From IMG/VR virus record IMGVR_UViG_2778261247_000018: a stretch of 4,319 bases of DNA; one strand, written 5' to 3'. Source of the stretch: a virus (Duplodnaviria > Heunggongvirae > Uroviricota > Caudoviricetes). Position 1 is the stretch's first letter; every line of letters starts with the position of its first letter. The notes under the pieces were generated by a model that was not told where the DNA came from, made no database searches, and worked only from the letters and a program-made list of their open reading frames with translations. The position numbers and the translations under genes were made by a program. Of the stretch, positions 2,477 to 4,319 are shown in pieces.

Positions 2477-2794
2477 ATGCGCCCCGTTTTATTGGGTAGG
2501 ATGAAAATGGATATAACACCTTTTCTTCATGCGCTTTGTGCTGTGGCTGCGCAGGTACTGATTGGCCTTTTTACCGGAAACTGGGCTTACGGTGCGATAG
2601 CCGGTTGTACGTTCTTCATTGCGCGTGAACACACCCAGGCAGAATATCGCTGGATTGAAATGTTCGGGCATGGCAAGCGAATGAATATGCCGTGGTGGGG
2701 CGGTTTTGATCCGCGCGCGTGGGATGTAGCAAGCCTGATGGATTTTGCTGTGCCGGTGGTGGCGTGTCTGCTGATCTGGATGTTGATCCGTTAA
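2477..2794 (+). CDS. Small two-helix membrane protein (about 96-105 aa) in moron position; function unknown
   Basis: ORF 2477-2794, stop TAA at 2792-2794. ATG at 2507 has the better RBS (AGGA at 2498-2501, 5-nt spacer), so the true start may be 2507. Two hydrophobic segments (ALCAVAAQVLIGLFTGNWAYGAIAGCTFFIA and FAVPVVACLLIWMLI) flank a Trp-rich loop. Hand-counted GC of 60-nt lines is about 48-58% here against 32-37% in much of the fibre genes. Confidence 0.6.
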   Translation: MRPVLLGRMKMDITPFLHALCAVAAQVLIGLFTGNWAYGAIAGCTFFIAREHTQAEYRWIEMFGHGKRMNMPWWGGFDPRAWDVASLMDFAVPVVACLLIWMLIR

Positions 2795-2795
2795 A

Positions 2796-2845
2796 TATAA
2801 AAAGTAAAAAGCCGCAGTAACTTGTCATGATAGGATACTGCGGCT
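2796..2845 (-). terminator. Probable rho-independent terminator for the minus-strand dinI-like / int transcripts
   Basis: 10-bp stem 2810-2819 (AGCCGCAGTA) pairs with 2836-2845 (TACTGCGGCT) around a 16-nt loop. On the minus strand the hairpin is followed by TTTTTACTTTTTATATTT (plus 2796-2809 region). On the plus strand it is not followed by a U-tract. Confidence 0.5.
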
Positions 2846-2911
2846 GGCTGGTTAACTTTCGATAGTGCGAGTATTGAATGATTTCCAGCCGTTACTGATT
2901 TTACGTGCTAA

Positions 2912-3160
2912 TTAGTGAACAAACCACTCGTCAGCAGACTCCCAGGTATCTTTCAGAGTTTCCTGAACAAAAGTTTTAGCTGAATCTTTATCGGCGGTGC
3001 GCGTAACAGAAAGGCCATCGTTGCTGGTGGCTTTTACGATCACCTCTACATCGTCATAACGTTTACTGATGCGTCGGGTTAATTCTTCCTTTAACGCATC
3101 CACAGCACCGTTTGGCATTTTAGTCATTTTTTCTTTGGCTATGCAGATCTCAATACGCAT
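2912..3160 (-). CDS. dinI: DinI-family protein (DNA-damage-inducible protein I homologue, 82 aa)
   Basis: MRIEICIAK...[14 protein letters not shown]...LSV...[13 protein letters not shown] aligns by eye along its whole length with E. coli DinI as I recall it (81 aa; MRIEV.IAK...GAIDALAGELSRRI...ETWESADDWFV). ATG is the reverse complement of 3158-3160, SD GAGGG sits 6 nt upstream on the minus strand, stop TAA is the reverse complement of 2912-2914. LexA boxes lie immediately upstream. Confidence 0.88.
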
Positions 3161-3175
3161 AAAAGTCCCTCTATA

Positions 3176-3191
3176 CTGTGTTTGTATACAG
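3176..3191. promoter_or_regulatory. LexA (SOS) box proximal to the dinI-like start: CTGTGTTTGTATACAG (minus-strand reading CTGTATACAAACACAG)
   Basis: Matches the gammaproteobacterial LexA consensus CTG-N10-CAG (CTGTATATATATACAG) at 12 of 16 positions on the minus-strand reading. Sits inside a 20-bp near-palindrome TACTGTGTTTGTATACAGTA (3174-3193), 16 nt upstream of the dinI-like ATG. Confidence 0.75.
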
Positions 3192-3203
3192 TATTATTTT
3201 TAA

Positions 3204-3219
3204 CTGTATGGATAAACAG
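3204..3219. promoter_or_regulatory. Second, distal LexA (SOS) box: CTGTATGGATAAACAG (minus-strand reading CTGTTTATCCATACAG)
   Basis: CTG-N10-CAG with 13 of 16 matches to CTGTATATATATACAG on the minus-strand reading. Its CTG is 28 bp from that of the proximal box, and it lies 2 bp past the integrase stop codon (3222-3224). Confidence 0.7.
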
Positions 3220-3221
3220 TG

Positions 3222-4319
3222 TCAAGAGGTCTTATTTCTGCTCCTTTGGAGCTCTTCAAAACGATTATGTAAAGATTTCGGATACAGTTCGGTATATACC
3301 TGCCATAGCACGTTTAATGAACGATGCCCTGTAACCTGAGCGACTTCCTCAATACTAAAACCAGCCTCAAATAAGCGACTTGCCCCTTCTCTACGCAAAT
3401 CATGGTATCGCAGATCTTTAATACCTAATTTGCTTCTTACCCTCTGAAATCCTGCAGTAACAGAAGTGCTGTTATATGGAAAAATGAATTCCGATTTTTT
3501 GGGCTGTCGTTGGACGATATCCCAGGCTTCCCCAAGCAAGGCTACTTTCATGTGGTTGCCTTCCTTTTTGCGTGGATCTTTCCTGTCTCTTACGAGTATA
3601 GATTTTTGTTCCTGGTCGAGATCTTCCCATCGTAACCGGCATACTTCTCCGATCCGCATACAGGACCACACAGAAAATTTGAGGATATCAACGAACGGAA
3701 TTTTTGAGCATTTATGAGTAGATCGTTGTTGAAGGCCTTCAATGAGCATGTCCAGTTCATCAGATGCTGGTCTACGATTACGACGGTTTGATTTACCAAT
3801 CAAACCAAGTTTAAGTAGATATGGGCGAGCGCTTTTCGCCGGGTTTGATGTGTAATTAATTCCGTATACAGGTTTGGCCGCATCCAGAACACTGCCAAGA
3901 TAACTAACATCGTGGCTGACTGTTGCTGGACCTGCACCAGCGTTGTTTCTTAGCCTGCAATGTTCAATTACGTCATTTTCTGTCAGTTCAGATAGTTTGA
4001 TCGCGGAGATGTCACTATCCATAAGCAGTTCCAGCACATATCTTTTAGTACGGCCTGCTTTACCTCCGGCATTTGGGTCATTTAAATATTTGTGTAGTAA
4101 GTCACGGACTGTAAGTCCGTCAACTGCATTTGATGATGGAATGCCATATAGATCTAATTCCATCACTTTCTGTGTTCCCCATGTTTTGGCATGAGCATGT
4201 TTAGGGAATGTTTTGCTTTCCCTGTAAGTGATAACACCTTTTTCTTTGATAATCACATTACAGCGATAGCGTGGTGTGCCATCGGATTTTAGTCGTTTCT
4301 CTATGTTATAGTACGCCAT
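3222..4319 (-). CDS. int: Tyrosine-type site-specific recombinase / phage integrase (365 aa as seen; start codon at the window edge, so the N-terminus could extend beyond it)
   Basis: Catalytic-domain motifs in the expected order in the C-terminal half: ...MRIGEVCRLRWEDLD... (box I Arg), ...YHDLRREGASRLFEAGFSIEEVAQVTGHRSLNVLWQVYTELYP (H-x-x-R, then GH, then a Tyr 10 residues later). The last block resembles the Rci / Xer / phage-integrase box II (GHRSxNxLxxY). Stop TGA is the reverse complement of 3222-3224. The ATG is the reverse complement of 4317-4319, the final three bases of the window. Confidence 0.85.
   Translation of the reverse strand: MAYYNIEKRLKSDGTPRYRCNVIIKEKGVITYRESKTFPKHAHAKTWGTQKVMELDLYGIPSSNAVDGLTVRDLLHKYLNDPNAGGKAGRTKRYVLELLMDSDISAIKLSELTENDVIEHCRLRNNAGAGPATVSHDVSYLGSVLDAAKPVYGINYTSNPAKSARPYLLKLGLIGKSNRRNRRPASDELDMLIEGLQQRSTHKCSKIPFVDILKFSVWSCMRIGEVCRLRWEDLDQEQKSILVRDRKDPRKKEGNHMKVALLGEAWDIVQRQPKKSEFIFPYNSTSVTAGFQRVRSKLGIKDLRYHDLRREGASRLFEAGFSIEEVAQVTGHRSLNVLWQVYTELYPKSLHNRFEELQRSRNKTS

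What the first reader, a model, noticed from the sequence alone, without database searches (positions are those of the whole stretch)
2795..2911. Convergent intergenic region with nested dyad symmetries: terminator and candidate attP or recombinase-binding region
Besides the 10-bp-stem hairpin (2810-2819 / 2836-2845), the segment holds a second partially overlapping inverted repeat: CGGCTGG at 2841-2847 against CCAGCCG at 2885-2891, with CAGTAA at 2816-2821 mirrored by TTACTG at 2892-2897. In tail-then-moron-then-int layouts the attachment site usually sits between the last late or moron gene and the integrase side, so this is the most likely place for attP or an integrase arm-site cluster here. 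No tRNA-like sequence is evident, which would imply integration into a non-tRNA target if attP is here.
Basis: partly seen in the sequence, partly recalled or inferred. Interest (0 to 1): 0.4.

Follow-up and report, generated by a model that had tools for sequence, protein, structure and literature searches.

The report
dinI terminator, not the phage attP
The dyad-rich gap between the tail-fibre genes and the dinI gene of this E. coli prophage is the untranslated tail and transcription terminator of the dinI/integrase unit, and the phage attachment site lies about 190 bases upstream of the integrase gene, past the window edge, inside the host dusA gene.

Summary
All three inverted repeats sit at the stated coordinates. 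Only the 10-bp hairpin (2810-2819/2836-2845) is significant on its own.

That hairpin is conserved across 32 sequence variants, with compensatory changes at 5 of 12 pairs. On the minus strand it is followed by UUUUACUUUUU. I read it as a Rho-independent terminator for the leftward dinI (and int read-through) transcripts.

The second repeat (GGCTGG/CCAGCC) lies in a ~60-nt non-coding block conserved in sequence only. Hairpin plus block also occur in phage lambda's b region, in a decayed dinI remnant in E. coli K-12, and in many lambdoid and Stx phages. The third repeat is chance.

The attP reading is refuted.
- The integrase is a DusA-associated integrase.
- In a lysogen 100% identical to the tested part of the window (2477-4319), the 8-bp crossover core ATGCTCGA lies 185-192 bp beyond the int ATG, inside dusA.
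- The same core marks the other prophage end.
- Free phage mEp460 carries the joined attP at that position.
- 37 of 37 related loci agree.
- A 95%-identical phage has experimentally verified dusA junctions.

No core, arm-like or invertase motif occurs in 2795-2911. This is an ordinary feature. The only open question is what the conserved block does.

The parts
2507..2794 (+). Small ORF of unknown function (95 aa from the ATG at 2507, or 105 aa from 2477). It is the last rightward gene, and its stop codon lies 5 nt from the terminator U-run.
   Evidence: ORF list. PGAP annotates it as a hypothetical protein. It matches phrog_1443 at E = 2.7e-58 and has no Pfam or NCBIfam match.
2799..2809 (-). 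U-run of the terminator. Read on the minus strand, UUUUACUUUUU directly follows the stem.
   Evidence: Sequence. In 23 of 34 distinct variants, at least 5 of the 8 nt after the stem are U.
2810..2845 (-). Terminator hairpin (hairpin 1): a 10-bp G+C-rich stem, AGCCGCAGUA/UACUGCGGCU, with a 16-nt loop and a predicted energy of -16.0 kcal/mol.
   Evidence: Covariation across 32 variants: 5 of 12 pairs change on both sides and 93.5% of cells stay paired.
2846..2904 (.). Conserved non-coding block. It contains the second dyad (GGCTGG 2846-2851 / CCAGCC 2885-2890) and an inner dyad (2858-2864 / 2872-2878), and ends in GATTTTAC. It forms the body of the dinI 3' UTR. Any function beyond that is unknown.
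   Evidence: It is nearly invariant across 39 variants from dinI phages, lambda, K-12, HK633 and Tritos. There is no covariation, only pair-breaking or G.U changes. No reading frame is open in the window (stops in all three plus frames and in the dinI-phase minus frame; sequence). There is no Rfam match.
2912..3160 (-). DinI-like gene (82 aa), a moron carried next to int.
   Evidence: Pfam PF06183 at E = 1.2e-19, phrog_189, and NF007893 below its cut-off.
3173..3225 (-). SOS-type promoter region of dinI. It has two LexA-box-like palindromes (CTGT-N8-ACAG) at 3175-3192 and 3203-3220. The -35 TTGACA at 3225-3220 overlaps the int stop codon, and the -10 lies around 3202-3196.
   Evidence: (I4, I9). 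mEp460 annotates a promoter at the homologous place. LexA binding is inferred from the consensus only.
3222..4319 (-). Tyrosine integrase (365 aa) of the DusA-associated type. The window ends at its ATG. The attP core lies outside the window, at what would be about 4504-4511.
   Evidence: Pfam PF00589. Candidate catalytic residues R222, K258, H306, R309, H332 and Y342 were placed by eye on motif positions. The gene is adjacent to dusA in the lysogen. Core mapping.

Best explanation
Segment 2795-2911 is the 3' untranslated tail of the SOS-inducible dinI-like moron, ending in a Rho-independent terminator.

Leftward (minus-strand) transcripts start at the LexA-boxed dinI promoter. Read-through from int is also likely, because only 61 nt and no terminator-like site separate int from dinI. 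These transcripts run 66 nt past the dinI stop codon through a conserved ~60-nt block. They then form the 10-bp G+C-rich hairpin (2845-2810) and end in the following U-run (about 2809-2799), 5 nt short of the converging rightward ORF.

The terminator works in one direction only, because on the plus strand the stem is followed by GGCUGGUU, not a U-run. The hairpin is also the left edge of the mobile dinI(-int) module. Homology with other phages breaks inside or right after it.

The segment plays no part in integration. This phage's integrase recombines an 8-bp core (ATGCTCGA) located 185-192 bp upstream of the int start codon with the 5' end of the host dusA gene, and the phage supplies a replacement dusA 5' end.

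Shown: the repeats, hairpin covariation, the position of the U-run, the att junctions, and the absence of att-like motifs. Inferred: that transcripts actually stop here, LexA control, and int read-through.
For: Terminator:
- The stem and U-run are read directly from the sequence; the stem energy is -16.0 kcal/mol.
- Folding z-score is -4.1.
- Across 32 distinct variants, 5 of 12 stem pairs show double-sided compensatory changes and 93.5% of cells stay paired. All slid controls fall to 50% or less.
- 23 of 34 variants keep at least 5 U in the 8 nt after the stem. All but one variant keep a hairpin of -8.5 to -22.9 kcal/mol.
- The element sits downstream of dinI in phages, and also in the decayed K-12 dinI remnant.
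- Mosaic break-points fall at 2838 and about 2905.

attP elsewhere:
- The lysogen has 100% identity over window 2477-4319, with the int ATG 88 bp from dusA.
- attL and attR share ATGCTCGA.
- mEp460 attP equals the phage half of attL joined to the phage half of attR.
- K-12 attB lies in dusA.
- 37 of 37 loci have the core at the same offset: 35 are attL and 2 are attP.
- Junctions are experimentally verified for phage 1720a-02 (PMC6328086).
- The family is described in PMC4482086.
- Phage records cut at the prophage ends finish about 191-194 bp beyond the int ATG.
Against: - No transcript 3' ends were mapped.
- The predicted loop is 16 nt, longer than in a textbook terminator. The simple terminator scan, which allows loops of 3-8 nt, did not call it.
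- 11 of 34 variants, and lambda itself, keep the hairpin but lack the U-run. The hairpin may therefore be kept for something other than termination, such as RNA stability or processing.
- The block between the dinI stop and the hairpin is more conserved than a passive spacer needs to be.
Confidence: 0.8

Rival explanations
1. One reading: the segment is attP, or a cluster of integrase arm-type sites, and integration would split the phage genome here.
For: It is a convergent, dyad-rich non-coding gap between late/moron genes and the int side. In several other lambdoid phages the homologous block lies within 0.2-1 kb of the right end of the prophage record. The HK633 GenBank record labels the homologous 81 bp as attP.
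Against: - The segment is contiguous in the lysogen, and the junctions map 1.6 kb away, upstream of int inside dusA (PMC6328086).
- The core ATGCTCGA and the 22-nt attP sequence are absent from the segment.
- The GGGAACC-type repeats that flank the true core are absent from 2795-2911 and occur at chance level across the window.
- The K-12 sequence that HK633's annotators took for attB is a decayed dinI pseudogene plus the same block, that is, a prophage remnant.
Confidence: 0.01
2. The hairpin-plus-block unit acts mainly on the plus strand, as a stop or barrier for rightward late and tail-fibre transcripts so that they do not run antisense into dinI and int. This could be a bidirectional terminator or a roadblock.
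For: - The unit always has the same orientation relative to the tail-fibre genes, whatever lies on its other side: dinI, ea31, or integrases annotated as Sf6-like (HK633) or sitting beside an exonuclease VIII gene as in Rac (Tritos).
- The plus strand folds slightly better (-39.8 against -30.1 kcal/mol).
- The inner stem has a G.U pair on the plus strand where the minus strand has an A.C mismatch.
- All four transitions seen in the outer stem keep pairing only on the plus strand.
- T-rich sequence follows the block (GATTTTAC...).
Against: - On the plus strand neither stem is directly followed by a U-run. Hairpin 1 is followed by GGCUGGUU, and hairpin 2 by 8 nt before UUUU.
- Late transcripts modified by Q-type antiterminators generally ignore intrinsic terminators (established lambda biology).
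- The outer stem shows no double-sided covariation.
- The strand asymmetry rests on 4 or 5 events (about P = 0.06).
Confidence: 0.15
3. The block plus terminator hairpin (about 95-110 nt on the minus strand) is released as a stable 3'-UTR-derived small RNA, or acts as an RNA processing or stability element, with a function of its own in lambdoid phages.
For: - It has the two-hairpin architecture, ending in a terminator with poly-U, that is typical of Hfq-type sRNAs.
- It is an island of 85-95% identity between otherwise unrelated flanks in lambda, HK633, Tritos, K-12 and Stx phages.
- The loops are as conserved as the stems.
Against: - There is no Rfam family, and two keyword searches turned up no paper describing it.
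- Stem 2 shows no covariation, and several singletons break pairs.
- The scan of one genome per species found it only in Escherichia and Shigella, plus lambda contamination. Its conservation may therefore reflect recent spread and recombination, not selection.
- The U-run is missing in a third of variants.
Confidence: 0.12
4. The block has no function of its own. It is a passive stretch of shared sequence, a mosaic joint, that persists because homologous recombination between lambdoid phages keeps crossing over in it.
For: Homology with different phage groups starts or stops at its edges, at 2838 and 2904-2905. The flanks on either side are interchangeable. Tritos keeps the block with only a stub of dinI.
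Against: This does not explain why the neighbouring hairpin keeps its pairing through compensatory changes. It also leaves unexplained the near-invariance of a 60-nt non-coding stretch beside a much more variable hairpin.
Confidence: 0.3

Closest known systems
Rho-independent terminators that bound phage morons (promoter-gene-terminator cassettes in lambdoid phages; own knowledge of the moron concept)
   Same: A G+C-rich stem followed by a U-run, immediately downstream of an independently promoted accessory gene (dinI, with LexA boxes). It sits at a mosaic boundary and at a point of convergent transcription.
   Different: The predicted loop is long (16 nt). A conserved ~60-nt block lies between the stop codon and the stem. 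Some relatives keep the hairpin without the U-run.
attP/attB of DusA-associated integrases (Farrugia et al. 2015, PMC4482086; phage 1720a-02, PMC6328086)
   Same: This phage's integrase and its true att site belong here. int lies next to the 5' end of dusA, a short conserved core is shared by attL, attR, attP and attB, and the phage carries a replacement dusA 5' end.
   Different: The finding's segment is not part of it. It lies 1.6 kb away on the far side of int and dinI, and shares no core or flanking repeat motif.
Lambda tI/sib region downstream of int
   Same: A hairpin at the far end of the leftward int-containing transcription unit, close to the tail-fibre and b region.
   Different: No sequence similarity to lambda 26500-29500. 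Here attP does not separate int from the hairpin, so the sib type of prophage-dependent retroregulation cannot operate. No extended RNase III-type duplex was found.
Unannotated stretch of the phage lambda b region between ea47 and ea31 (NC_001416 24172-24265)
   Same: It is homologous to hairpin 1 plus the block (the block aligns at 88% over 67 nt) and lies in the same orientation relative to the tail-fibre genes.
   Different: In lambda there is no U-run after the hairpin and no dinI. The unit lies inside the leftward unit, with ea47 downstream. No feature is annotated at this spot in the record.

Membership tests
Rho-independent (intrinsic) terminator | G+C-rich stem-loop | tested here: met
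   The 10-bp stem has 6 G-C pairs and an energy of -16.0 kcal/mol.
Rho-independent (intrinsic) terminator | U-run directly 3' of the stem on the transcribed strand | tested here: met
   Met on the minus strand: UUUUACUUUUU at 2809-2799. Not met on the plus strand (GGCUGGUU). 23 of 34 variants keep at least 5 U in 8 nt.
Rho-independent (intrinsic) terminator | Short loop (3-8 nt) | tested here: not met
   The predicted loop is 16 nt in the window, and the consensus scan did not call the site. Relatives have loops of 9-11 nt or partly paired loops. This is atypical but does not disqualify the site.
Rho-independent (intrinsic) terminator | Pairing maintained in evolution | tested here: met
   5 of 12 pairs have changes on both sides and 93.5% of cells are paired. 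No shuffle reached the observed covariation score.
Rho-independent (intrinsic) terminator | Transcript 3' ends at the U-run | not testable with these tools
   Needs Term-seq, 3' RACE or a reporter assay.
attP of a DusA-associated integrase | Core sequence shared with attB in dusA and with attL and attR | tested here: not met
   The core ATGCTCGA and the 22-nt attP sequence are absent from 2795-2911. The core lies 185-192 bp beyond the int ATG.
attP of a DusA-associated integrase | The segment is split between the two prophage ends in lysogens | tested here: not met
   It is contiguous in VTB97074v. The junction lies upstream of int in 35 of 35 lysogen loci.
attP of a DusA-associated integrase | Clustered repeats of the kind that flank the core (candidate Int arm sites) | tested here: not met
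   GGGAACC-like repeats flank the true core, 3 on one side and 2 on the other. None lies in 2795-2911, and the window count is at chance level. Their role as arm sites is itself only inferred.
DusA-associated integrase (the int gene of the window) | Tyrosine recombinase encoded next to, and divergent from, the 5' end of dusA, with the element replacing the dusA 5' end | tested here: met
   PF00589. Candidate R-K-H-R-H-Y residues were placed by eye on motif positions. The int ATG is 88 bp from the dusA start, and that start lies in phage DNA.
Invertase (Gin/Pin/Hin) crossover site | AAACC-NN-GGTTT core dyad | tested here: not met
   No match in the segment with up to 2 mismatches.
Any curated RNA family (Rfam 15) | Covariance-model match | tested here: not met
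   No match in 2795-2911 at E up to 1.

The most novel reading that the evidence does not exclude
The ~95-nt hairpin-plus-block unit is an unannotated, functional non-coding element. It is also present in phage lambda's b region (24172-24265) and in many Stx and lambdoid phages. It might be a 3'-UTR-derived small RNA, an RNA stability or processing signal, or a barrier between the converging late and leftward transcription units. It would be maintained for that role, not as a plain terminator or a recombination relic.
Probability: 0.15. Interest if true: 0.4.

Novelty: new member of a known kind. Interest (0 to 1): 0.15.

Why it matters
This mainly corrects an annotation. It places the true attachment site of this common E. 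coli prophage type inside dusA, upstream of int. It also shows that the dyad-rich gap next to the tail-fibre genes is a terminator and 3' UTR.

The result warns against calling attP from position and dyad symmetry alone. The HK633 GenBank record appears to have done that with the same block.

The one point with wider reach is that a ~95-nt non-coding unit is shared by lambda and many Shiga-toxin phages and has no assigned function. If it proved to be an RNA element, it would add a small piece to lambdoid gene regulation.

Tried and rejected
- Rfam scan of the whole window at E up to 1: nothing in the segment.
- Consensus terminator and promoter scan: it missed the hairpin because of the loop-length limit. 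A promoter-like hit at 2855-2827 (minus strand) lies partly in the variable loop and is not conserved.
- Similarity to the lambda att/sib region (26500-29500) and to the right end of Rac: no block. Hairpin 1 alone occurs near the Rac end.
- Coding potential of the block: in the window, stop codons interrupt all three plus-strand frames and the minus-strand frame that continues from dinI. That frame, in phase with dinI, is open in some relatives, but it lacks a start codon and the window itself has a stop (sequence). The PGAP 'capsid protein' pseudogene at 2835-2915 is judged spurious.
- Alternative pairing of CGGCTGG (2841-2847) with CCAGCCG as an anti-terminator: rejected. The terminator together with the 6-bp register (2846-2851) is far more stable, and both can form at once.
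- Invertase crossover sites: none.
- Arm-like GGGAACC motif and att core: none in the segment.
- Scan of one genome per species for the block: only Escherichia and Shigella, plus what looks like lambda control-DNA contamination. No deep phylogenetic series was available for covariation.
- Literature searches for a known element (ea47/ea31 terminator; ykgJ small RNA): nothing relevant. EcsR2 lies in a different intergenic region.
- Strand-of-action test from G.U against A.C changes in stem 2: suggestive for the plus strand but inconclusive.

Full report
**Context.** The window is the right end of a lambdoid E. coli prophage.
- Three tail-fibre-region ORFs lie on the plus strand, at 7-1134, 1134-1415 and 1425-2465.
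- They are followed by a small ORF of unknown function (2507-2794, phrog_1443).
- On the minus strand lie a DinI-like gene (2912-3160, PF06183) and a 365-aa tyrosine integrase (3222-4319).
- The window ends exactly at the int ATG.

The finding covers the 117-nt convergent gap between the small ORF and dinI.

**Observation.** All three inverted repeats are at the stated coordinates. In 2000 dinucleotide shuffles of the segment, three perfect repeats of at least 7 nt occur with P = 0.0025, and so does a 10-nt arm. A single 7-nt repeat occurs in 26% of shuffles. Both strands fold about 4 sd better than shuffles.

**Where attP really is.**
- A megablast of 2477-4319 against complete E. coli genomes finds a 100% match in strain VTB97074v.
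- There the int ATG lies 88 bp from the annotated start of dusA, which is transcribed divergently.
- The other prophage end lies about 51 kb away, next to zur.
- The two junctions share the 8-bp core ATGCTCGA. On the int side it lies 185-192 bp beyond the int ATG, equivalent to window positions 4504-4511, which is outside the window.
- Phage mEp460, sequenced as a free phage genome, carries a contiguous sequence at the same offset. It matches the lysogen's attL phage half on one side of the core, at the ~93-98% identity expected between two related phages, and its attR phage half on the other. This is attP.
- E. coli K-12, which lacks the prophage, has the matching attB (CCAATGCTCGACTGGAC) about 95 nt into dusA.
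- Of 80 IMG/VR loci encoding this DinI, 43 have this int. All 37 with enough flank have the core at the same offset: 35 as attL joined to dusA and 2 as attP.
- Phage records cut at the prophage ends (PhiR47_1, phiSTEC1575-Stx2k, 1720a-02) finish 191-194 bp beyond the int ATG.
- For phage 1720a-02 (95% identical over dinI and int), integration 100 bp into dusA, both junction sequences and Int-dependent attP formation were shown experimentally (PMC6328086).
- The family of DusA-associated integrases was described by Farrugia et al. (PMC4482086).

The segment contains no copy of the core or of the attP sequence. It has none of the GGGAACC-like repeats that flank the true core, and no invertase crossover dyad.

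**Hairpin 1.** I collected the sequence downstream of dinI from the 80 IMG/VR loci and from mEp460, Tritos and PhiR11_1, which gave 34 distinct variants.
- All but one carry a hairpin at the same place. Several stem versions occur, for example CCGCAGCACG.../...CGTGTCTGCGG, CCGTGGCACGT/ACGTGCCGCGG and GCGGTACGT/ATGTACCGC.
- On a 32-sequence alignment, 5 of 12 stem pairs show changes on both sides and 93.5% of cells remain paired. Slid controls reach 50% at most.
- Stem energies range from -8.5 to -22.9 kcal/mol, with -16.0 in the window.
- Read on the minus strand, the window's stem is followed by UUUUACUUUUU (2809-2799). 23 of 34 variants have at least 5 U in the next 8 nt.
- On the plus strand the stem is followed by GGCUGGUU.

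The best reading is a one-directional Rho-independent terminator for leftward transcripts. dinI has its own promoter, with two LexA-box-like palindromes at 3175-3192 and 3203-3220 and a -35 that overlaps the int stop codon. Nothing terminator-like separates int from dinI, so int transcripts probably end at this terminator too. These last points are inferences.

**The second dyad and the conserved block.** GGCTGG/CCAGCC and an inner dyad lie in a ~60-nt stretch (2846-2904) that is almost invariant in all variants. Its stems show no covariation, only pair-breaking singletons or G.U changes. The third repeat (CAGTAAC/GTTACTG) is not conserved and is chance.

The block is not coding. In the window, stop codons interrupt all three plus-strand frames and the minus-strand frame that continues from dinI. 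The PGAP 'capsid protein' pseudogene at 2835-2915 is spurious. Rfam has no match.

Hairpin plus block form an island of homology in otherwise unrelated contexts:
- Phage lambda, between ea47 and ea31 (24172-24265), without a U-run.
- The E. coli K-12 ykgJ-ecpE intergenic region, where it follows a frameshifted dinI pseudogene.
- Tritos, beside a different integrase that sits next to an exonuclease VIII gene as in Rac, with a stub of the dinI 3' end.
- HK633, beside an integrase annotated as similar to that of Sf6. There the depositors labelled the block attP because it resembles the K-12 region, a call that now looks doubtful.
- Many Stx phages, 0.2-1 kb from the right end of the record.

A pattern scan of one genome per species found the block only in Escherichia and Shigella. 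The other hits look like lambda control-DNA contamination. Homology with different phage groups breaks at 2838 and at 2904-2905. The unit therefore sits at a mosaic joint and marks the left edge of the dinI(-int) module.

**What remains open.** The hairpin survives in lambda and in a third of variants without a U-run, and the block is very well conserved. The unit may therefore have a role beyond termination. Candidates are RNA stability or processing, a 3'-UTR-derived small RNA, or a plus-strand barrier against late transcripts. The few transitions seen in stem 2 all preserve pairing only on the plus strand, but this rests on 4 or 5 events. I put about 15% on an autonomous functional element. 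The default is a 3' UTR plus terminator at a recombination joint.

**Verdict.** The terminator reading is supported and the attP reading is refuted. This is an ordinary feature, a new instance of a known kind, and of low interest.

Noticed in passing
L090 5670-5779 (E. coli K-12 dusA 5' end) compared with L003 7932-8035 and L004 ~24900 (reverse complement): The first ~104 nt of K-12 MG1655 dusA are ~80% identical to the phage-borne replacement 5' end next to int (MHGNSEMQKINQTS... against MHDNHETQKINQTS...). They do not match the native 5' end displaced to attR in VTB97074v (MPAESHTVYPAYRF...). K-12 dusA therefore seems to carry a fossil phage-derived 5' end. yjbL and yjbM, between zur and dusA, may be remains of that element.
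   Followed up: partly
window 3173-3225: The dinI promoter has two LexA-box-like palindromes (CTGT-N8-ACAG) at 3175-3192 and 3203-3220, bracketing the -10. The -35 TTGACA overlaps the int stop codon. The phage DinI is therefore probably SOS-induced, and its promoter is embedded in the end of int.
   Followed up: partly
window 2835-2915 (L003 6359-6439): RefSeq/PGAP annotates a 'capsid protein' pseudogene fragment with an internal stop across the hairpin and block. No plus-strand frame is open there, and the sequence is a conserved non-coding unit, so the annotation looks spurious.
   Followed up: partly
L092 2485-2565 (phage HK633, JQ086377 20680-20760): GenBank labels this stretch attP because it resembles the K-12 ykgJ-yagV intergenic region. 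It is the same hairpin-plus-block unit, and the K-12 match is a decayed dinI pseudogene plus the block, not an empty attB. The HK633 attP call is doubtful.
   Followed up: partly
L093 4206-4450 (K-12 304205-304450, ykgJ-ecpE intergenic region): An unannotated, frameshifted dinI-like pseudogene with its 3' block and hairpin. It is a small prophage remnant outside the listed cryptic prophages.
   Followed up: partly
L094, L098, L102, L108, L129 and others (genome-contig scan): The lambda variant of the block appears in assemblies of Pseudomonas, Shewanella, Streptomyces, Chromatium and others. The contigs are often low-coverage and about 48.4-48.5 kb long. This is almost certainly lambda control-DNA contamination of those assemblies.
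   Followed up: no
L003 7844-7905 and L001 4690-4760 (both flanks of the true attP core, outside the window): GGGAACC-like repeats flank the core: GGGTTCCC, GTGGGAACC and GCGGGAACC on the int side, and GTGGGAGCC and TTGGGAACC on the far side. They are candidate arm-type binding sites for the DusA-type integrase.
   Followed up: partly
L089 8729-8769 (K-12 1434728-1434768, right end of Rac): A copy of hairpin 1 alone, without the block, lies about 190 bp from the Rac attR (ttcC), between ynaM and ttcC.
   Followed up: no
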